Virus record (IMG/VR): IMGVR_UViG_3300032285_004073 | Span: 64,001 to 128,000 of that record | Origin: a virus | Length of the DNA stretch: 64,000 nt | Strand: one strand, 5' to 3' | Part shown: in pieces, positions 1 through 54,194 of the stretch | Layout: each line of letters opens with the position of its first letter | Position numbering within the stretch: the first letter of the stretch is position 1 | The notes under the pieces: generated by a model | Database searches by the model: none | The model's input: only the letters and a program-made list of their open reading frames with translations | What the model was told of the DNA's origin: nothing | Made by a program: the position numbers and the translations under genes

Positions 1-335
1 GATTGTCTATTTTTTTCAGATTGTATTCTCAATTCAAAAGGTTCAAAATCTGTAACAGGACTATATCTTTGACTAAATTCTTGAAAAGAAAAACTTCTGT
101 GACGAAGAATTTGAGCTGCTATAGCTCTGGATGTTTTAATTTCAACTGTAACACTAACCATTTCATATGGAGACCAGTGTTTATGTTCAATTAAATATTT
201 TAATAATTTAGGTGCTGTCTGTGTATTTAATTGATTAGAAGGGTTGGATACCCTTGCACAATAAACCACAAAATCTTCTGGTGATAAAACACCTTCTATT
301 ATAGGTTCTGTAATACCAACTATTCTTACTTGCAT
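1..335 (-). CDS. thyX: Flavin-dependent thymidylate synthase ThyX (runs off the left edge; not in the ORF track)
   Basis: Manual translation from ATG at 335: MQVRIVGITEP...YCARVSNP...HKHWSPYEMV...SRAIAAQILRHRSFSFQEFSQRY, containing the ThyX signature RHRx7S. Confidence 0.95.
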   Translation of the reverse strand, partial: MQVRIVGITEPIIEGVLSPEDFVVYCARVSNPSNQLNTQTAPKLLKYLIEHKHWSPYEMVSVTVEIKTSRAIAAQILRHRSFSFQEFSQRYSPVTDFEPFELRIQSEKNRQ

Positions 336-1195
336 AAAAGGATCTCTTTAAAAAGATTAATATTCTCTTCTACATATTCTAATTGAGAATCTGATATTTC
401 ATTTTCAAAAATATCTACCATCTTCTCTGTAATTTTATGTTCTAAATTAACATTATTTTCATAACTCTTAAGATTATATCCCATTAATACTGGATGTGAG
501 GTATCAATTGTTTCTATAAAAGAATAAAGTTCTCCTTTATAATTTATAAATTCAGTCGGCAAACCACATCCAAGTAAATGATGTGGTTTGGTATAATCTA
601 TAATACCATCTTCAATAAATTGTTGTAAAAGAATAGGTCTAAAAACTGAATAAGCAGTTGGTTTCCACACTTCTTTTATTCTTTTTTCATTATTAAGAGG
701 ACTAGAAGTAATAGCTGTGAAAACATCTCTGTCCATTTTTTCTAAAGCTTGCTGCCAAAAATAATCATAACCAAAGCTAATAGCTATTTTATCTGCATGT
801 TCTCTCATGAATAAATAGGAATCCTTTAATTCCTGGTAATTTTTTCCTTGGATAACTCCTATAGCCTTTCCGCGGAAAGTTCCTCTATCAAATTTTACTA
901 GGAACTCTTCAAAACTCTTAATATTTGCTTCATAATTCTGAAAAACATCTGGTATTATATACTCATCCGGCTCTAATTCATAGAGCCAATTAATAAATTT
1001 ATCATGGTTATAAGCTTCACCAAGTTCATAAAGACTATTATCTAAAATAATTTTGCGTCCTAACTTTTTTGATTTAAAGAAAAAATCTCTATATTCTTTA
1101 TTTTCTTCCAATAAATGAACTAATGCATAGTCATAATCGGTTAATCCTCTGACTCTTTCCATTATTTTTAATGGTGCTTCGTGTGCTACTAACAT
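326..1195 (-). CDS. TGT/DpdA-like TIM-barrel protein, candidate 7-deazaguanine DNA-insertion enzyme
   Basis: Motifs IILDNSLYELG, GVIQG, HHLLGCG and IDTSHP parallel the TGT-fold DSG, QG, HxLG and D(S/T)S motifs. The TGT CxCxxC Zn site is absent. ATG at 1195 is preferred over TTG at 1204, which abuts the -10 box. Confidence 0.55.
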   Translation of the reverse strand: MLVAHEAPLKIMERVRGLTDYDYALVHLLEENKEYRDFFFKSKKLGRKIILDNSLYELGEAYNHDKFINWLYELEPDEYIIPDVFQNYEANIKSFEEFLVKFDRGTFRGKAIGVIQGKNYQELKDSYLFMREHADKIAISFGYDYFWQQALEKMDRDVFTAITSSPLNNEKRIKEVWKPTAYSVFRPILLQQFIEDGIIDYTKPHHLLGCGLPTEFINYKGELYSFIETIDTSHPVLMGYNLKSYENNVNLEHKITEKMVDIFENEISDSQLEYVEENINLFKEILLCK

Positions 1196-1206
1196 ATATT
1201 TCAATT

Positions 1207-5736: not shown

Positions 5737-6495
5737 CTAGACTTTAAGGGCTTTATCCCAAACAAGAAGGTGTAATCTAGGACTAAAATTTACATGCATT
5801 GCTTTAGCATACTCTGCAACAACTGGAGCCTTTTCTATATGCTCTTCTCTAGAACCACAGCAAGGCATAAACCAAATACGGTCTCTAATTGCATTAATAT
5901 GATGCTTATCGTCAACATACTTTTCCCAAATTTCATTAATATCTTCTGATTTGTTAATAACAAATTTAAACCCTGATCCATTTCTTGCATGCCATTTAAG
6001 AACCTCTGGCTTGTAGGTTTTATCTTCTGGATCCCCGTTTGATCGGAGTTTAGGTGACGTTGTAAAAGTGGCATTAAAAGCATCTTTCCAAACTGGATCT
6101 GGCATTAAAGTAGCATTGGTTTCAAAATCAATACGCGGAACAATTTTATATTTCTCTATAAATGCTTGAATGAATTTAATTAATTGCTTCTGTTGAATAA
6201 GCGGTTCACCGCCTGTAAGCTTAAGAATAGCATTATGTGCTAAATGATTGATATAACCATTATCTTCCATAAGTTGAAAGATTTCAGCAAATGTCATTTT
6301 ATTCTTAACTGTCCAAGAAATAAATGAATCACATCCATTAGGAGAATCTTCTGAAGCAAATCCAATACACGTCAAATTACACATTGACATGCGCATAAAC
6401 ACTGAAGGTTGTCCTACAAATTCACCTTCACCTTCAATAGTATAAAAAACTTTATCATCCGACAAAAATAATGTCTCTGTATTAATATCAATCAT
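5737..6495 (-). CDS. queE: 7-carboxy-7-deazaguanine synthase QueE (radical SAM)
   Basis: FYTIEGEGEFVGQPSVFMRMSMCNLTC...CDS, LTGGEPL, FETNAT, SPKL, FSPRLHLLVW. Confidence 0.88.
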   Translation of the reverse strand: MIDINTETLFLSDDKVFYTIEGEGEFVGQPSVFMRMSMCNLTCIGFASEDSPNGCDSFISWTVKNKMTFAEIFQLMEDNGYINHLAHNAILKLTGGEPLIQQKQLIKFIQAFIEKYKIVPRIDFETNATLMPDPVWKDAFNATFTTSPKLRSNGDPEDKTYKPEVLKWHARNGSGFKFVINKSEDINEIWEKYVDDKHHINAIRDRIWFMPCCGSREEHIEKAPVVAEYAKAMHVNFSPRLHLLVWDKALKV

Positions 6496-39227: not shown

Positions 39228-39503
39228 ATGACCGAAAAGGTTTATAATCTTAATAATTTAACTCAAAACCAAATTAAATTAATTCTTGAAGCTTTGCTTT
39301 ATGCTGGTTCTGTCGACATTAACAGTGCCTGGTATAAAGAAGAAATAGAAAATATGGTTGATTTGGCTATTGATATTAGAAAAATTTCTTCTAATATTCC
39401 TTTAGAAAGTATATACGCCTTTGAAGAAGAATATTTTGATTCAACTACTAAAAAAATTGTTGAATTCTTTCCAGAGATTTTATATAATAAACCAAATTTA
39501 TGA
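39228..39503 (+). CDS. Hypothetical protein
   Basis: 91-aa ORF, ATGA-coupled to the next gene. Confidence 0.65.
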   Translation: MTEKVYNLNNLTQNQIKLILEALLYAGSVDINSAWYKEEIENMVDLAIDIRKISSNIPLESIYAFEEEYFDSTTKKIVEFFPEILYNKPNL

Positions 39504-40132
39504 AAATAGCTGTTTCAGGTGCTCAAAATACTGGTAAGTCAACTTATATTAAAGACTTTTTAAAAAAATGGACCATGTATGAAACTCCTAAAGAATCCTA
39601 CAGAGATCTTCTTAAGGAAAAAAATTTACCTCATAGTACAGAAGGCAATGAAGAATCTCAAAGAATTATATTAGATTTTCTTATTGATCAGTGTCAAAAA
39701 TATTCTAAAGAAGATAATGTAATTTTTGATAGATGTGTATTAGATAATTTAGCATATTCATCTTGGTTAAATCTTAATGGAAAGGTTTCTGATAAATTTC
39801 TAGATGAATCTAGAATTATTGTAAGAGAAACATTAAGCATGTTTGATATTGTTTTCTTTGTACCTTTAACTAAAGTAGCCCCTATTGATATAGAAGAAGA
39901 TGGATTAAGAAACACAGACCCTGTGTTTAGAGAAGAAATTGATAATATCTTTAAAGTATTTGAACAATCTTACCATCAAGGTGATGGGAGAGTGTTTCCT
40001 AAAAATGACAGTCCTCCTATTATAGAAATTTATGGTAATCCAGAACAAAGAATAATGCTTACAAGTCTTTATATCAATGAAGACGGTAAACAATACGGTG
40101 AAGAAGAAACTTTAATTAAGCCCGCCTTCTAG
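39500..40132 (+). CDS. P-loop nucleotide kinase-like protein (AAA_28/dNMP kinase-like)
   Basis: VSGAQNTGKST, IFDRCVLDNLAY, DGLRNTD. Confidence 0.78.
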   Translation: MKIAVSGAQNTGKSTYIKDFLKKWTMYETPKESYRDLLKEKNLPHSTEGNEESQRIILDFLIDQCQKYSKEDNVIFDRCVLDNLAYSSWLNLNGKVSDKFLDESRIIVRETLSMFDIVFFVPLTKVAPIDIEEDGLRNTDPVFREEIDNIFKVFEQSYHQGDGRVFPKNDSPPIIEIYGNPEQRIMLTSLYINEDGKQYGEEETLIKPAF

Positions 40133-41964: not shown

Positions 41965-42605
41965 GAAGTGACAGATTGTTCTTGATCTCTTAACTTTTTA
42001 GGAGCTGTAATAATAAATGAATTTAATACTTCTTTTAATTTATCCAATTCACCTGTGGTACGAGTAATATTGTCAGAAGATTTACGCATGATACCACGAA
42101 GTAAACTTCCAGCCTTATCATTATCTGATAAAAATTTGTGTAAAGAATCTATTTTAGGATCATTTAATCTAGCAGTAAATTCATCTAATATATTTGACCA
42201 CTTTTCAATTTCTTCAATATTTTTGCTTATAACTTCTGCCGGAATACCTTCAATTTCATATGCATCTTTTGGTGTTTCTGGTTCTAATGATTTTTCAAAA
42301 GCTTCTTTGTCAGATTCTGGAGTAAACTCTTCTGGAGTTTTTTCATCCGGTTCAGATTCTGGTGTAATTTCTTTTTCTTCTGCTTCGCCGATTAAATAAG
42401 ATAAAAATCTGCCAGCAAATGGAATTTCATAATTTTCCTCATGACAACAATTGCAATCTCCTATACATTTGCACATGGGTTTGTAATTTGAATCTAGTAT
42501 TCTTTTTACATCCTTTTCCACCTTTGAATTCTTAGCTGGTATAACATTTTTTACAGAATATTTTTTCTGTGCTTTAGGTTTAAATTTGACTTTCTTGTTG
42601 TTCAT
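41961..42605 (-). CDS. Hypothetical late protein with Cys cluster and TPE repeats
   Basis: CKCIGDCNCCH; TPESEPDEKTPEEFTPES; TAAATA upstream on the minus strand. Confidence 0.6.
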   Translation of the reverse strand: MNNKKVKFKPKAQKKYSVKNVIPAKNSKVEKDVKRILDSNYKPMCKCIGDCNCCHEENYEIPFAGRFLSYLIGEAEEKEITPESEPDEKTPEEFTPESDKEAFEKSLEPETPKDAYEIEGIPAEVISKNIEEIEKWSNILDEFTARLNDPKIDSLHKFLSDNDKAGSLLRGIMRKSSDNITRTTGELDKLKEVLNSFIITAPKKLRDQEQSVTS

Positions 42606-42626
42606 CGTTAGAATATATACTATATT
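42598..42626 (+). promoter_or_regulatory. Sigma70-like promoter TTGTTC-N17-TATATT
   Basis: 6 nt upstream of the queC ATG at 42633. Confidence 0.45.
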
Positions 42627-42632
42627 TACCTT

Positions 42633-43349
42633 ATGAGTGTCAAAAAACCAAAAGCAATTGTAATTTATAGTGGTGGTTTAGATTCTACGTGTCTTTTATA
42701 TAAAATTCACAAAGATAGAGAAGTTATAGCATTAATCTTTAATTATGGACAAAGGCATTCCATTGAAATAGACAATGCAATTAATAACTGTAAGAAATTA
42801 GAAATACCATATAAGGTATTAGACATTTCTTTCTTTAAAGATATAGCATCTTCCTCTGCTTTATTGGATTATAATAAAGAAATTCCCAATATCAGGGATA
42901 TAGCAGGTCATGCCCAACCTCCGACCTATGTCCCTAATAGGAACATGATGTTTTTATCAATTGCCACAGCAGCTGCAGAGTCAGCAGGGGCAGATAAAGT
43001 TTATTATGGAGCAGCTGAGGTAGACACCCATAGTGGTCATTGGGATTGTTCTTTAGATTTTTTAAAATATATTAATGAAACTATTTCTCTTAATAGAGAA
43101 CATCAAATCAAAATAGAAGCACCTTATATAACATATTCTAAGGCAGATATTATTAAAGATGGTATTAGTAATAATGTAGATTTTAATAACACCCATACCT
43201 GTTATAAGGGTGAAGAAATTGCATGTGGCACTTGTACAGCATGTTCTTCTCGTATTCAAGGTTTTCTTGAGGCTGGATATATTGATCCTAAACAATATGT
43301 AATATCAGATAAAATACCATGGAAAGATCACAACTGCCAAATCGTATAA
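42633..43349 (+). CDS. queC: 7-cyano-7-deazaguanine synthase QueC
   Basis: YSGGLDST PP-loop, YGQRH, YVPNRNMMF, Zn site HTCY...CGTCTAC..R. Confidence 0.95.
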   Translation: MSVKKPKAIVIYSGGLDSTCLLYKIHKDREVIALIFNYGQRHSIEIDNAINNCKKLEIPYKVLDISFFKDIASSSALLDYNKEIPNIRDIAGHAQPPTYVPNRNMMFLSIATAAAESAGADKVYYGAAEVDTHSGHWDCSLDFLKYINETISLNREHQIKIEAPYITYSKADIIKDGISNNVDFNNTHTCYKGEEIACGTCTACSSRIQGFLEAGYIDPKQYVISDKIPWKDHNCQIV

Positions 43350-44008
43350 AAACACAGCATATTGTTTGTGCTACACCTCTTTCTCTAGAAGATTTTTATG
43401 AGAAAAGCCAATTGGGTTTATTTATAGACAAATATAATTTCCAAAAACAAAGCACAATAGTAGCTAACAACAAAGAAGGATTGCCTAAAGTTTACAATTC
43501 TTTTATAACTGAAGAAAACAGAGACAAAAATATTATATTTGTTCATGATGATGTTCTTATAGAAGATCTTTTCTTTGCCGAGAAATTAGAAATTGCTTTT
43601 GAGAAATATGATATTATAGGATTAGCTGGTTCTAAGGTTTGTGATTTAGATAGCATTAACCCGGCTTGGCATCAAATGTGTGAAAAGAAAGACATGGTCG
43701 GAGAAGTAGCACATGCTCATAATAAAAAAGTATGGACTTCTGTATTTGGACCTACAGATTCTAGAGCCCTTATTCTTGATGGATTGTTTATAGGTGTCAA
43801 TGTTGCTCGCTTATTAAAAACACAAACATTTTTTGATGAGGATTTTGATTTTCACCATTATGATATTTCTTTTTGTTTAAAAGCCAATGCTAATAAATTA
43901 AAAATGGGTGTAGCTCCGATCAGGGTTATTCATTTTGGATTAGGTGATAGTATGAATACAAAAGAATGGAGAGAGAGTGCAGCTCGTTTTAAATTAAAGT
44001 ATAATTGA
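43319..44008 (+). CDS. GT2-like glycosyltransferase (Glyco_tranf_2_5-like)
   Basis: IFVHDDV, IIGLAG, LDGLFIGVN, FDEDFDFHHYDISFC. Confidence 0.8.
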   Translation: MERSQLPNRIKTQHIVCATPLSLEDFYEKSQLGLFIDKYNFQKQSTIVANNKEGLPKVYNSFITEENRDKNIIFVHDDVLIEDLFFAEKLEIAFEKYDIIGLAGSKVCDLDSINPAWHQMCEKKDMVGEVAHAHNKKVWTSVFGPTDSRALILDGLFIGVNVARLLKTQTFFDEDFDFHHYDISFCLKANANKLKMGVAPIRVIHFGLGDSMNTKEWRESAARFKLKYN

Positions 44009-44011
44009 TTT

Positions 44012-44665
44012 ATGTGCGGAATATACGGAAATATAAATCATGCTGAATTTTATAGACTTTACAAATTAAATAAATCTCGTGGCAGTTATAGTACTGGGTT
44101 TCTTTTTATTGATAATAAAGAATATGAAGTGAAGAAAACCAATGAAGATGTTTCTTATTATCCTATAGCTTTAAAAAAATATTATTTAGGACATAACAGA
44201 GCCCCTACTACAGATGAAAATGGCAAAGGATTGACTGGTTGTCACCCTTTTATCTATGGTAAAGCTATAGCAGCTCATAATGGTATTATTTCCAATACAG
44301 ATATTTTAGAAAATGAATATAAAATTAAATTTGATGTAGATAGTCAATGGATACCTTTTCTTTATGATTATTTTAAAAGGAATAATAATCAATCAGAAAA
44401 TGCATTCCGTCTCGCTTTATTGGAATTAGAAGGAACATATGGAATTTGGCTTTATGATATAGATGAAGAAATTGTATTTGTATCAAGAAGTGATAATACA
44501 GTTTACTGGGATGATGAAAAAATATCCTTTACATCCATTAGAGATGATATGCATAAAAATTTAATGCCGCAGGGCGCTATTTACAAAAAAGAAAATAATG
44601 AACCGTTTAAAGATATAAACGAAAACAATAGGTTGAATATTAAACAGAAGTATTTTATTATATAA
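44012..44665 (+). CDS. Stand-alone class II (Ntn) glutamine amidotransferase
   Basis: N-terminal MCGI, GHNRAPT, HPF, HNGII, DSQ; no SIS or synthetase domain. Confidence 0.88.
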   Translation: MCGIYGNINHAEFYRLYKLNKSRGSYSTGFLFIDNKEYEVKKTNEDVSYYPIALKKYYLGHNRAPTTDENGKGLTGCHPFIYGKAIAAHNGIISNTDILENEYKIKFDVDSQWIPFLYDYFKRNNNQSENAFRLALLELEGTYGIWLYDIDEEIVFVSRSDNTVYWDDEKISFTSIRDDMHKNLMPQGAIYKKENNEPFKDINENNRLNIKQKYFII

Positions 44666-44668
44666 GTT

Positions 44669-45238
44669 ATGAGTTATTTTAAACAAGATTACAATGGTGA
44701 TTTAATCCACAAGAGATTTGGATACGAGCATTTTAAAAAAGATTATAATCCCTTAGGAGTTATTATTGCCTTTAGAGGCAATATGGATGTTACAACCAAT
44801 CTCATTGATTTAGAAGATAAAATTAATAATGATTTTATTTATTCAGATGATGCTTTAAACTTTTGCTGGGAAATCCCTAATATTTGTCCTATCGGTGCAG
44901 TTTTCTTTCAGAGACTTTTTGCTCGTTATATCGGAGATGAATTAGCTAGCGGTCGTTATGGAAAATTAAATGTTAAGGTAGATGGAGATGATATAATGAT
45001 CATTAGACCAGGCGACGCAAAGTACGGCAAAGCTAGTGTTAGTATTACTATGGTTACTAATAATGCAGCAGTAGGACATCTTGGTTTAAATATTAAAGCA
45101 GGACCTAAGGCTCCTACCTTTGCATTTTCACTCTTATTAGATGATGCAGATACTGCTTGGCTAACCAATAGAGTTAAAGAAATATTTTATGAGACTATTA
45201 AAGATTGTTTCACCGCCACTACAAAGGTTTGTGTTTAA
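44669..45238 (+). CDS. DUF366-like protein (BPL/LplA/class II aaRS-like fold)
   Basis: Y.G..I, IIAFRG.MDV, IDLED, FQRL, GDDI, K.SVSI, HLGLNI match the recalled DUF366 pattern. Confidence 0.7.
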   Translation: MSYFKQDYNGDLIHKRFGYEHFKKDYNPLGVIIAFRGNMDVTTNLIDLEDKINNDFIYSDDALNFCWEIPNICPIGAVFFQRLFARYIGDELASGRYGKLNVKVDGDDIMIIRPGDAKYGKASVSITMVTNNAAVGHLGLNIKAGPKAPTFAFSLLLDDADTAWLTNRVKEIFYETIKDCFTATTKVCV

Positions 45239-45630
45239 TGGTTAAGAAAAATATCATAGACGGATTATTTCCATTATTGGATTGGATTCTTAAAAAGAAA
45301 GGTAAATTACCTACAGACGTTAATTTACCAGGAACATTTATTATTAATAGATGGTTATCTATGGCAGATTCTTCATCTGCTCAAATTATTAATGCAACCA
45401 CTAATAGATGGATTAATAAAACAGAATTAACTAAAGAAAATATTTTATTATATAAATTTTATTATTCAGTTTTACCCAAATCGTTTAAAAAAATTTTTTA
45501 TATTAAAAAGCCTACCAAAGAGCAACAAGCAGAAGATTTAACAGGAATAGCATCAGCCATGGAATGCTCCACCAGAGAAATAGAATGTTATAACAAAACC
45601 CTTGCAGAATTAAAGAAGAATCTTAAATAG
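45238..45630 (+). CDS. gp62: Clamp-loader small subunit (T4 gp62-like)
   Basis: FIINRWLSM, YKFYYSVLPK...YIKK; start taken as the ATG overlapping the upstream TAA (TAATG). Confidence 0.7.
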   Translation: MVKKNIIDGLFPLLDWILKKKGKLPTDVNLPGTFIINRWLSMADSSSAQIINATTNRWINKTELTKENILLYKFYYSVLPKSFKKIFYIKKPTKEQQAEDLTGIASAMECSTREIECYNKTLAELKKNLK

Positions 45631-45637
45631 ACAATAT

Positions 45638-46033
45638 ATGATAGAAAGACCACAACAAGAAGATAGAATTCATGGACTAGTACAAATAGATAATTACAAA
45701 GGTAATTCCTTAGAATTGGATGACTGGACTTTGACCAAAGTCATGGATGATATCATTATGGTGCAATATATTGATATTAGTGAGGACGGCACTGAGGTCA
45801 ATCGCAATGGTATTTGGTTGCCTATTAATGCAGTCAATCATGTTTGGAGAATAGGCAGAGTTATATTAGCAGGACCTAATTGTAAAACAGTAAAAGAAGG
45901 AGATAATATTGTATTCCCAAATGATAAAGGCATACAAGTTTCGAGTTTAAATGATTTGAAGCATATTGTTTTCTTGAATGAAGCTCGCATATTTGGAGTA
46001 TGCGAACCTAAAAAGCGTAAGAAAACTAAGTGA
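45638..46033 (+). CDS. GroES/cpn10-like co-chaperonin (T4 gp31 analogue)
   Basis: DDIIMV, NGIWLP, GRVILAGPNCKTVKEGDNIVF, FLNEARIFGV. Confidence 0.8.
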   Translation: MIERPQQEDRIHGLVQIDNYKGNSLELDDWTLTKVMDDIIMVQYIDISEDGTEVNRNGIWLPINAVNHVWRIGRVILAGPNCKTVKEGDNIVFPNDKGIQVSSLNDLKHIVFLNEARIFGVCEPKKRKKTK

Positions 46034-52715: not shown

Positions 52716-54194
52716 ATGAACAATGTCAAACCAGCCCCTGGTTTCATCGATCGCTCTCGCGCCACTCAACTCTTAGAGAAGTGGGCCCCTGTTCTTGATT
52801 ATTCAAGTGACAAGGTTTCCCCAATCCAAGATGAGCATGCCCGTCTTTCAACAGCAATGTTGATGGAAAACCAAGAGCGTTGGTGCTTAGAGGAAGGTAG
52901 TGCTAATTCTTATGGTGGCAGTGCCTTTGGCTCTGTCCCAGCAGGAGCTAACATCTACAATCCAGCTAATACCCAATATGCTTCTAGTGATAATTATGCG
53001 CAGAATGATGCTCGCTTACCAAAGGTATTAATCCCAATGGTTCGCCGTACATTCCCAGAACTTATCACTAATGAGATCGTCGGTGTACAACCAATGAGTG
53101 GCCCAGTCGGACTTGCGTTCGCATTACGTTATCGCTATGAGGCAGATAGTTTAGGCTCAACGGGAGTTGATGGCTGGACCAGTGGTGTTTCACAAACCAG
53201 CAACACAGGCATCAGTCGTACAGGTGCAAACCCAACGACAGATGGCTCAGAACTTGGCTATAACTATCTTGATACTCGCTTTACTGGTACTTCAGCTGCC
53301 GCCCTTACAGGTAACACGGATTTTTACTTCCCTGATTCCGATAAAGGTGTCGCTGCATTACTCAGTCAATTCGAGTTATCTGGAAACATTCCACAGGTCA
53401 CTGTAGAGTTCAGTAAGACAGCAGTTGAAGCCGGCACACGCCGTCTCGCAGCTCGCTGGTCTGTTGAGCTCGAGCAGGATCTTAAGAACATGAACGGTCT
53501 CGATATCGACTCTGAATTAACAAATGCCATGAGCTATGAAATTCAAGCCGAAATCGATCGTGAAATGGTCATCAGAATGATCCAGACCTGTCTCAATGCC
53601 GGTTCTACAAATGGATATAGCTTCTGGTACGCTGCTTCAGCCGACGCTCGTTGGCTCGGAGAGCGTAATCGTGACTTCTACAGCAAGGTAATCGTACAAG
53701 CCAATCGTATTGCTATCCGCAATCGTCGTGGTAGCGCTAATTTCATTATCGCTACACCTAAGGTTTGTGCTATCCTTGAGATGTTACCCGAGTTCCAGTG
53801 GATGCCTGTAAATGGCAACATCAACACCCAACCAACTGGCATTGCCAAGGTTGGCACACTTGGTGGCCGTTTCAACGTCTACCGTGATACTCGTACAGAT
53901 GCTCAATTCCTCGCAGGACAACGCAGTGCAGCTCAAGCTATTGACTATGCCCTCTTAGGCTACAAAGGCACAGAGTACTACGATACAGGTATCGTATACT
54001 GCCCATATATCCCTGTCATGATTCAACGTACAATCGGGCCTAATGACTTCTCACCTCGCGTGGGACTCATGACCCGTTACGGTGTCGTAGATTATATCTT
54101 CGGTGCTAGCTTGTACTATCACGTAATCATCGTTAGCGGATTGGGTACCTCTTTTGCCGGCGGAGCCAATGGCCAGAGTACAATTTACATCTAA
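52716..54194 (+). CDS. gp23: Major capsid protein (T4 gp23-like)
   Basis: LLEKWAPVL, LIPMVRRTFP, GVQPMSGPVGLAFALR, AGTRRLAARWSVELEQDL, YCPYIP, TRYG. Confidence 0.98.
   Translation: MNNVKPAPGFIDRSRATQLLEKWAPVLDYSSDKVSPIQDEHARLSTAMLMENQERWCLEEGSANSYGGSAFGSVPAGANIYNPANTQYASSDNYAQNDARLPKVLIPMVRRTFPELITNEIVGVQPMSGPVGLAFALRYRYEADSLGSTGVDGWTSGVSQTSNTGISRTGANPTTDGSELGYNYLDTRFTGTSAAALTGNTDFYFPDSDKGVAALLSQFELSGNIPQVTVEFSKTAVEAGTRRLAARWSVELEQDLKNMNGLDIDSELTNAMSYEIQAEIDREMVIRMIQTCLNAGSTNGYSFWYAASADARWLGERNRDFYSKVIVQANRIAIRNRRGSANFIIATPKVCAILEMLPEFQWMPVNGNINTQPTGIAKVGTLGGRFNVYRDTRTDAQFLAGQRSAAQAIDYALLGYKGTEYYDTGIVYCPYIPVMIQRTIGPNDFSPRVGLMTRYGVVDYIFGASLYYHVIIVSGLGTSFAGGANGQSTIYI

What the first reader, a model, noticed from the sequence alone, without database searches (positions are those of the whole stretch)
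42633..45238. QueC-glycosyltransferase-amidotransferase-DUF366 operon: candidate new hypermodified deazaguanine pathway
Seen: four co-oriented, tightly coupled genes behind a promoter: QueC, a GT2-like enzyme, a stand-alone class II glutamine amidotransferase and a DUF366-like protein. Established: QueC makes preQ0, and GAT-QueC fusions (crenarchaea, coliphage 9g) make archaeosine (G+), which phages place in DNA against restriction. Inference: this is a split GAT plus QueC predicting dG+ (or an amide such as ADG). The GT between them and the ligase-fold DUF366 suggest a further glycosylated or acylated 7-deazaguanine; I know of no such derivative described in phage DNA. FolE and QueD are not in this window.
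Basis: partly seen in the sequence, partly recalled or inferred. Interest (0 to 1): 0.85.

Follow-up and report, generated by a model that had tools for sequence, protein, structure and literature searches.

The report
Phage QueC operon with DUF366 partner
An uncultured T4-like phage that probably replaces guanine in its DNA with a 7-deazaguanine carries QueC together with a free-standing glutaminase and an unstudied ligase-fold protein (DUF366) that also sits inside the preQ0 operons of hundreds of bacteria, while the sugar transferase between them looks like a bystander, so there is no real sign of a new glycosylated base.

Summary
The four genes are there exactly as described (QueC, GT-A glycosyltransferase, class II glutaminase, DUF366). 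They are tightly packed behind a sigma-70-like site. The genome also encodes FolE2, QueD, QueE and a DpdA3-type DNA transglycosylase, and no QueF.

- In 34 long records of related phages, QueC, the glutaminase and DUF366 occur in the same 17 and are absent from the same 17.
- The GT occurs in all 34. These include three 92-100% complete genomes with no QueC, QueD, DpdA3, glutaminase or DUF366.
- On the GT tree, que-linked and que-less loci interleave. The GT is therefore not que-dependent.
- DUF366 is not a tailoring marker. In 80 bacterial genomes from several phyla it lies in queD-queC-DUF366-queE-folE.
- Its fold is that of biotin/lipoate protein ligases, and the ligase lysine and GxN motifs align weakly.

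Most likely QueC, the glutaminase (a split Gat-QueC) and DUF366 make preQ0, or G+/ADG, from CDG with glutamine as nitrogen donor. A glycosylated or acylated deazaguanine is unlikely (about 0.08).

This scan has met the DUF366-QueC link before on other DNA (43 notes, at least 37 genomes). I found no paper on it.

The parts
42586..42614 (+). sigma-70-like promoter candidate ahead of QueC
   Evidence: TTGACT-17-TAGAAT, 10/12, best + strand site of the region. The number of such sites is not above the shuffles, so this is only a candidate.
42633..43349 (+). QueC (7-cyano-7-deazaguanine synthase), canonical-type
   Evidence: PF06508 E 1e-58; TIGR00364 179 bits, above the cut-off. PP-loop SGGLDS and four C-terminal Cys are kept. 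Best isolated-phage relative is 41% identical (KVP40 group).
43319..44008 (+). GT-A fold glycosyltransferase (PF13712), probable bystander
   Evidence: Pfam 35.6 bits. Model pLDDT 89; best PDB match is majastridin 2qgi/2nxv with UDP, TM 0.67. HDD (D77 D78) is invariant. Found in 34/34 related records, including que-less complete genomes. The tree interleaves que-linked and que-less loci.
44012..44665 (+). stand-alone class II (Ntn) glutamine amidotransferase domain, partner of QueC
   Evidence: Invariant M1-C2, R23-G24, H89-N90-G91 and D110-S111. hhalign to the 9g Gat-QueC GAT domain gives probability 91%. Present in exactly the 17 of 34 records that have QueC, always within about 2.6 kb of it. 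In the viral loci the median gap between the two genes is 26 nt.
44669..45238 (+). DUF366 protein with biotin/lipoate-protein-ligase-like fold, conserved partner of QueC
   Evidence: PF04017 77 bits. Model pLDDT 90; 2ddz TM 0.79, then BPL/LplA. Same 17/34 phyletic pattern as QueC. Lies in queD-queC-DUF366-queE-folE in bacteria.
45205..46033 (+). orf141 and GroES/gp31-like gene: continuation of the transcription unit, not que-specific
   Evidence: Cpn10 match. orf141-GroES follow DUF366 or the GT in nearly all related loci, including que-less ones.
326..1204 (-). DpdA3-type DNA guanine transglycosylase (same pathway, elsewhere in the window)
   Evidence: 37% identity over 91-96% of the length to Flavobacterium phage immuto_2-6A 'DNA guanine transglycosylase' and to Campylobacter phage CP220. 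Homologues in 5/5 QueC+ genomes that are 99-100% complete and 0/5 que-less records (three of them 92-100% complete).
5737..6495 (-). QueE-like radical SAM enzyme (same pathway)
   Evidence: Best NCBIfam matches are five QueE models (E 1e-14 to 2e-7), all below their cut-offs. Fer4_12 match.

Best explanation
The block is part of a DpdA3-type 7-deazaguanine DNA-modification pathway of an uncultured T4-like phage.

FolE2, QueD and QueE are encoded elsewhere in the genome and make 7-carboxy-7-deazaguanine (CDG). The genes of this block carry out the last steps of base synthesis.
- QueC is a PP-loop ATPase. It activates the CDG carboxylate and converts it, through the amide ADG, to the nitrile preQ0.
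- The free-standing class II glutaminase hydrolyses glutamine and hands ammonia to QueC. The pair is a Gat-QueC split into two genes, with the same domain logic as asparagine synthetase B. It may also take preQ0 on to the amidine G+.
- DUF366 has a biotin/lipoate-ligase-like fold. It is a conserved helper of this same small-molecule step. Most likely it binds or adenylates the carboxylate substrate.
- DpdA3 then puts the base into DNA in place of guanine.
- The glycosyltransferase between QueC and the glutaminase is a resident gene of this phage group. It probably works in glycan synthesis and not on the base.

Shown here: the genes, their families and folds, their co-occurrence and their neighbourhoods. 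Inferred: every enzymatic step and the identity of the final base (dPreQ0, dG+ or dADG). preQ1 derivatives are not expected, because this genome has no QueF.
For: - Families and folds.
- Rest of the pathway in the genome: QueD, FolE2, QueE, DpdA3. No QueF.
- Phyletic pattern in 34 long related records: QueC, the glutaminase and DUF366 are in the same 17 and absent from the same 17. This holds when DUF366 is 25-40 kb from QueC. DpdA3 is in 5/5 QueC+ genomes that are 99-100% complete and in 0/5 que-less records, three of them 92-100% complete.
- Glutaminase: catalytic residues invariant. Profile match to the 9g Gat-QueC GAT domain. Next to QueC in 33/37 loci.
- DUF366 in at least 556 bacterial genomes. 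In the 80 best loci QueC lies directly upstream in 59, QueE directly downstream in 48 and QueD is present in 48, with FolE following, across Bacillota, Desulfobacterota, Nitrospirota, Chloroflexota, Melainabacteria and Actinomycetota.
- DUF366 profile aligns GDD..K-x-S-x-S..GH-x-G-x-N with the PND..K..GIGxN core of a biotin protein ligase (weak, E 0.18).
- GT: in 34/34 records. Closest homologues are in que-less phages. Que-linked and que-less loci interleave on its tree. The same module is fused to GT4/GT2 domains in other phage proteins.
Against: - No biochemical data exist for DUF366 or for the split glutaminase.
- Wherever the glutaminase exists, the GT lies right beside it. This also holds in phages where QueC-GAT-GT sits at a different genomic place, between uvsX and the helicase. 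The bystander reading does not explain this.
- E. coli and B. subtilis QueC need neither a glutaminase nor DUF366 (established knowledge), so DUF366 is not essential to the chemistry.
- The bacterial QueC next to DUF366 is a sequence variant, and the phage QueC is not.
- The ligase-motif alignment is weak.
- The phyletic pattern in phages may reflect few evolutionary events.
- The glutaminase scores just below Pfam's gathering threshold.
Confidence: 0.62

Rival explanations
1. First reader's reading. The GT and the ligase-fold DUF366 tailor the deazaguanine, as free base or in DNA, into a new glycosylated or acylated derivative. QueC plus the glutaminase supply its dG+/ADG core.
For: - The GT lies beside the glutaminase in 33/34 loci. 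It travels with QueC-GAT to a second genomic location.
- The four genes are translationally packed.
- N-glycosylated preQ0 natural products exist (huimycin, dapiramicin; from my own knowledge, not checked here).
Against: - The GT is present in 34/34 related records. Genomes G001-G003 (92-100% complete) lack QueC, QueD, DpdA3, the glutaminase and DUF366.
- These que-less GTs are the closest homologues (56-69% identity) and keep all invariant residues.
- The tree shows at least 2 and up to 5 switches of que linkage around an unchanged GT.
- DUF366 sits in ordinary bacterial preQ0 operons with no GT.
Confidence: 0.08
2. The glutaminase works with DUF366 and not with QueC. DUF366 adenylates CDG and the glutaminase supplies ammonia to give the amide ADG. 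QueC only dehydrates ADG to preQ0, or ADG itself is inserted, giving dADG as in Campylobacter phage CP220.
For: - In this phage the glutaminase and DUF366 are adjacent with a 3-nt gap.
- The two have the same 17/34 phyletic pattern.
- DUF366 has a ligase fold with the aligned lysine motif.
- CP220, also a DpdA3 phage, has dADG (PMC10516641).
Against: - In bacteria DUF366 occurs without any glutaminase.
- In many phages DUF366 is 25-40 kb from the glutaminase, while the glutaminase stays within about 2.6 kb of QueC, with at most one gene between them.
- Known fusions join the glutaminase to QueC.
- No long fused form of DUF366 was found.
Confidence: 0.15
3. DUF366 has nothing to do with deazaguanine in this phage. 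It is simply a core gene at the edge of the gp31 block and of a variable glycan island.
For: - In about 49 unique related loci DUF366 is preceded by sugar-nucleotide and glycan genes, and there are no que genes within 8 kb.
- It is always followed by orf141-GroES.
Against: - All nine DUF366-selected long records have QueC somewhere, five of them 30-40 kb away.
- All 17 records without QueC lack DUF366.
- The independent bacterial queC-DUF366-queE adjacency.
Confidence: 0.05

Closest known systems
Gat-QueC of Enterobacteria phage 9g (gp06) and Crenarchaeota, linked to archaeosine (G+)
   Same: A class II glutaminase combined with QueC in a deazaguanine pathway. The profile of the stand-alone glutaminase matches the 9g GAT domain (hhalign probability 91%, E 1e-6). 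QueC aligns with the 9g QueC domain at 26% identity.
   Different: Here there are two separate genes, separated in this phage by a GT gene. QueC is of the canonical sequence type, whereas the 9g QueC domain resembles the bacterial DUF366-linked variant. The partner transglycosylase is DpdA3, not DpdA1. DUF366 is present here and absent from 9g.
DpdA3-type 7-deazaguanine DNA modification (Campylobacter phage CP220: dADG; Flavobacterium phage immuto_2-6A: fdPreQ1; Cellulophaga phage phiST: dDG; Cui et al. 2023, PMC10516641)
   Same: T4-like or large myophage genomes with FolE, QueD, QueE and a DpdA3 homologue (37% identity).
   Different: Those phages have no detectable homologue of DUF366 or of this GT. 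Records of those phages were not among the 25 listed of the 31 that match the glutaminase. The final base of the present phage is unknown.
Bacterial preQ0 operons queD-queC-DUF366-queE-folE (e.g. Desulfosporosinus, Desulforamulus, Carboxydothermus islandicus)
   Same: DUF366 lies beside QueC within the precursor pathway.
   Different: There is no glutaminase, no GT and no DpdA. The QueC is a sequence variant. The product serves tRNA.
PH0223 of Pyrococcus horikoshii (PDB 2DDZ), and the biotin/lipoate protein ligase fold
   Same: TM 0.79 to 2DDZ. Foldseek E about 1e-5 to BPL/LplA catalytic domains. The GDD..K..GxN segment aligns with Aquifex BPL.
   Different: No function is known for PH0223. 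I did not see the biotin-binding GRGRxGR loop of BPL in the alignment, though I made no motif search. Sequence similarity to BPL is marginal (E 0.18).
Majastridin (PDB 2NXV/2QGI), a GT-A protein of the Rhodobacter blasticus ATPase operon
   Same: Best structural match of the GT (TM 0.67, UDP complex).
   Different: 17-18% identity. The acceptor of majastridin is itself unknown.

Membership tests
QueC (PF06508 / TIGR00364) | Score above the curated cut-offs | tested here: met
   PF06508 198.7 bits (cut-off 22); TIGR00364 179.4 bits (cut-off 150.3).
QueC (PF06508 / TIGR00364) | PP-loop SGGxDS motif and C-terminal zinc-binding cysteines | tested here: met
   S13-G14-G15-L-D17-S18 and C190, C198, C201, C204 align with E. 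coli QueC.
Class II (Ntn) glutamine amidotransferase | N-terminal catalytic Cys directly after Met, Asn-Gly oxyanion pair, Asp that binds the glutamine amino group | tested here: met
   M1-C2, H89-N90-G91 and D110-S111 are invariant in 9 homologues. The assignment of roles rests on knowledge of PurF/GlmS.
Class II (Ntn) glutamine amidotransferase | Pfam gathering score | tested here: not met
   GATase_6 25.1 bits against a cut-off of 27. Weak glmS/purF N-domain matches. hhalign to the 9g GAT domain gives 91%.
Gat-QueC | GAT and QueC fused in one polypeptide | tested here: not met
   Two ORFs, with the GT gene between them here. They are adjacent but separate in the relatives.
Gat-QueC | Leads to G+ (archaeosine base) in nucleic acid | not testable with these tools
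   Needs mass spectrometry of DNA.
DUF366 (PF04017) | Score above the cut-off and the fold of PH0223 | tested here: met
   77 bits against a cut-off of 29.9. TM 0.79 to 2ddz.
Biotin/lipoate protein ligase superfamily | Catalytic-domain fold | tested here: met
   Foldseek E 1e-5 to 3e-4, TMq 0.42-0.58, to many BPL and LplA chains.
Biotin/lipoate protein ligase superfamily | Catalytic lysine and adenylate-binding GxN motif | tested here: inconclusive
   The profile alignment to Aquifex BPL places K-x-S-x-S and GH-x-G-x-N on KKVSG and GIGIN, but E is only 0.18. No coordinates were available to check the pocket.
GT-A glycosyltransferases (PF13712) | Score above the cut-off, GT-A fold, acidic DxD-type motif | tested here: met
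   35.6 bits against a cut-off of 27. Majastridin/SpsA/GalNAc-T matches. H76-D77-D78 invariant.
DpdA3-type 7-deazaguanine DNA modification system | DpdA3 homologue plus FolE, QueD, QueE (and QueC) in one genome | tested here: met
DpdA3-type 7-deazaguanine DNA modification system | Guanine in virion DNA replaced by a 7-deazaguanine | not testable with these tools
   The phage is uncultured and known only as an IMG/VR contig.

The most novel reading that the evidence does not exclude
In the QueC-bearing phages the GT, which always lies beside the glutaminase even after the cluster has moved, has been recruited together with DUF366 to decorate the 7-deazaguanine, for example with an N-glycosylated amidine or amide. 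This would give a DNA base not yet described.
Probability: 0.08. Interest if true: 0.85.

Novelty: new variant of a known kind. Interest (0 to 1): 0.55.

Why it matters
Phage 7-deazaguanine DNA modifications protect against restriction, and their enzymology is still being mapped.

This block shows a widespread, uncultured T4-like lineage that pairs DpdA3 with a split glutaminase/QueC and with DUF366. At least 444 viral contigs carry DUF366.

The wider point is DUF366. A small ligase-fold family with a solved structure but no known function turns out to be built into preQ0 operons of many bacterial phyla and into phage DNA-modification pathways. That places its action at the shared small-molecule stage, around CDG and QueC. 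It can be tested directly with purified proteins.

The work also removes an attractive but unsupported claim of a glycosylated deazaguanine.

Tried and rejected
- blastn of the block against isolated phages gave no match.
- tblastn of DUF366 against isolated phages hit only Microcystis phage MaAM05. The neighbours there are bacterial housekeeping genes (secF, glyS, fliM), so the hit says nothing about phages.
- Pfam TGT (PF01702) and Radical_SAM (PF04055) searches of the genome were negative, although DpdA3 and QueE are present. Both proteins are too divergent for those models (resolved).
- Bacillus phage BSTP12 'GATase/QueC' is only a 224-aa QueC, so it could not serve as a Gat-QueC reference. 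I used 9g gp06 instead.
- A search for longer, fused forms of DUF366 found none. This is weak evidence.
- Idea that the GT glycosylates hydroxymethyl-pyrimidines: there is no ThyA-type hydroxymethylase in 9 genomes, so the idea has no support.
- Idea that DUF366 replaces QueD in bacteria: rejected, because QueD (PTPS) sits in the same operons.
- Idea that DUF366 always goes with a 'variant' QueC: true of the bacterial loci but not of this phage.
- Literature searches for DUF366, PF04017, COG2029 and PH0223 found nothing relevant.
- The first genome contigs attempt with a too-diverse alignment failed and was repeated with a tighter one.
Full report
**Observation.** The window is bases 64001-128000 of a 176.8-kb IMG/VR virus record (82% complete). 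It has T4-like replication and structural genes: PolB, UvsX, gp46, primase, gp31-like GroES and gp23. Four + strand ORFs lie exactly where stated: QueC 42633-43349, a GT-A glycosyltransferase 43319-44008, a class II glutaminase domain 44012-44665, and a DUF366 protein 44669-45238. Family assignments come from Pfam, NCBIfam and PHROGs. The genes overlap or are 3 nt apart. A sigma-70-like site lies 19 nt before QueC, but such sites are no more frequent here than in shuffles. The unit continues into orf141 and the GroES-like gene.

**Rest of the pathway.** The genome also encodes:
- QueD at genome 61516-62079(-);
- FolE2 at genome 56306-57088(-);
- a QueE-like radical SAM enzyme at window 5737-6495(-);
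- a DpdA3-type transglycosylase at window 326-1204(-), 37% identical to those of Flavobacterium phage immuto_2-6A and Campylobacter phage CP220.

According to Cui et al. 2023 (PMC10516641), guanine is completely replaced in the DNA of both those phages. There is no QueF in this genome. So this is a DpdA3-type 7-deazaguanine DNA-modification phage whose base stops at the preQ0/G+/ADG level.

**Related phage loci.**
- DUF366 relatives occur on 444 viral contigs, GT relatives on 310 and glutaminase relatives on 55.
- I scored all fetched loci with the window's proteins. This gave the following unique local patterns:
  - 52 loci with the GT alone (primase-orf214m-GT-orf141-GroES);
  - 49 loci with DUF366 alone, preceded by a hypervariable sugar-nucleotide and glycan island: GDP-mannose dehydratase/epimerases, DegT, GT10/GT11, UDP-galactopyranose mutase and pyruvyl transferase;
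  - 30 loci with QueC, GAT, GT and DUF366 together;
  - 10 loci with QueC-GAT-GT and no DUF366 nearby.
- The glutaminase has QueC beside it in 33 of 37 loci with enough flank (median gap 26 nt). It has the GT beside it in 33 of 34 (median gap 68 nt).

**Whole-record searches.** I searched 34 long records of this phage group.
- QueC, the glutaminase and DUF366 are in the same 17 records and absent from the same 17.
- In seven of the 17, DUF366 lies 25-40 kb from QueC. In four inspected in detail (L298-L301), QueC-GAT-GT sits between uvsX and the gp41-like helicase.
- The GT is in all 34 records, one copy each.
- The three que-less records that are 92-100% complete also lack QueD and DpdA3. DpdA3 is found in five of five QueC+ genomes that are 99-100% complete.
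- On a quick maximum-likelihood tree of 87 GT sequences, que-linked and que-less loci interleave. There are 5 changes, at least 2 of them forced by well-supported branches. The careful search did not finish.
- This phage's GT clade is nested among que-less GTs.

The GT therefore keeps its sequence and invariant residues whether or not a deazaguanine pathway exists. Its fold is GT-A, closest to majastridin with UDP. The same module occurs fused to GT4 and GT2 domains in other phage proteins. This phage carries a very large glycan gene island of its own. I read the GT as a resident glycan-type enzyme. Its constant adjacency to the glutaminase, even after relocation, remains unexplained.

**DUF366.**
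- The AlphaFold model (pLDDT 90) matches PH0223 (2DDZ, TM 0.79). After that it matches the catalytic domains of biotin and lipoate protein ligases.
- A profile of cellular and phage members aligns GDD..K-x-S-x-S..GH-x-G-x-N with the PND..KKVSG..GIGIN core of Aquifex biotin protein ligase. In biotin protein ligases this segment holds the catalytic lysine and the adenylate contacts (from my own knowledge). The alignment has only E 0.18.
- A scan of one genome per prokaryotic species found at least 556 bacterial genomes with DUF366.
- In the 80 best loci the gene order is queD-queC-DUF366-queE-folE. QueC is directly upstream in 59, QueE directly downstream in 48 and QueD is present in 48. Pfam confirmed PTPS and GTP cyclohydrolase I, and NCBIfam gave QueE models as the best matches, below their cut-offs.
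- The phyla include Bacillota, Desulfobacterota, Nitrospirota, Chloroflexota, Melainabacteria, Actinomycetota and Margulisiibacteriota.

DUF366 thus accompanies pathways that end in tRNA (bacteria, archaea) and in DNA (these phages). Its role must therefore lie in the shared small-molecule part. Its position beside QueC and its carboxylate-activating fold point to the CDG-to-preQ0 step. It is not a sign of hypermodification. Isolated deazaguanine phages lack it, and E. coli and B. subtilis QueC work without it, so it is an accessory and not an essential part. The bacterial QueC beside DUF366 is a recognisable sequence variant. This phage's QueC is of the canonical type.

**Glutaminase.** All residues expected of an Ntn class II glutaminase are invariant. 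The protein is only the glutaminase domain, so it needs a synthase partner. Three things make QueC the most likely partner: its fixed place beside QueC, the profile match to the GAT domain of 9g Gat-QueC, and the parallel with asparagine synthetase B (class II GAT plus PP-loop domain; established knowledge). Several relatives with the same glutaminase also carry bimodular QueF-like genes. This fits a role in making preQ0 from glutamine at least as well as a role in making G+.

**Verdict.** The operon is real and belongs to a deazaguanine DNA-modification pathway. QueC, the glutaminase and DUF366 form a functional module, and the GT is probably a bystander. There is no positive evidence for a glycosylated or acylated base. 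My estimates for the final base, from analogy only, are dG+ about 0.4, dPreQ0 about 0.35, dADG about 0.15 and something else about 0.1.

The DUF366-QueC link has been noted many times by this scan on other DNA, including a very similar T4-like phage locus, and my independent tests agree. I found no paper that names it.

Noticed in passing
L300:6190-6933 (record G012): The QueC of this related phage has lost the C-terminal zinc-binding cysteines (…EEKPDAYSASSSLR… where the others have CGxCxxC). It may be an altered or inactive QueC.
   Followed up: no
G010:C1:161400-162008, G008:C1:228725-229333 and four more related records: Bimodular QueF-like genes (about 300 aa, two QueF-domain matches) in six QueC+ relatives and none in this genome. 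Those relatives may carry preQ1-type bases.
   Followed up: partly
L298:9675-11540, L300:6923-8179, L301:7220-8707: Unknown ORFs of 418-621 aa with no Pfam match are inserted on the opposite strand between QueC and the glutaminase in three related phages.
   Followed up: partly
L014-L082, upstream of DUF366: In about 49 related loci DUF366 marks the end of a hypervariable island of sugar-nucleotide and glycan genes (GDP-mannose dehydratase/epimerases, DegT aminotransferase, GT10/GT11 fucosyltransferase-like, UDP-galactopyranose mutase, pyruvyl transferase). The content of the island differs from contig to contig.
   Followed up: partly
window 39500-40132: A small AAA_28/thymidylate-kinase-like gene lies beside the primase here. 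In relatives (L049, L078, L082, L032) it lies directly beside QueE.
   Followed up: no
L287:3638-4633 and cluster c19 in the bacterial loci: A 2-hydroxyglutaryl-CoA dehydratase D-component-like gene follows queE in several bacterial DUF366 operons.
   Followed up: no
L002 (MW495066.1, 'Microcystis phage MaAM05'): The region around its DUF366 gene is annotated with secF, glyS, mtgA, fabI and fliM. It looks like bacterial DNA within a phage record.
   Followed up: no
window 52716-54194: The GC-rich stretch of the window (43% against about 30%) is the gp23 major capsid protein gene.
   Followed up: yes
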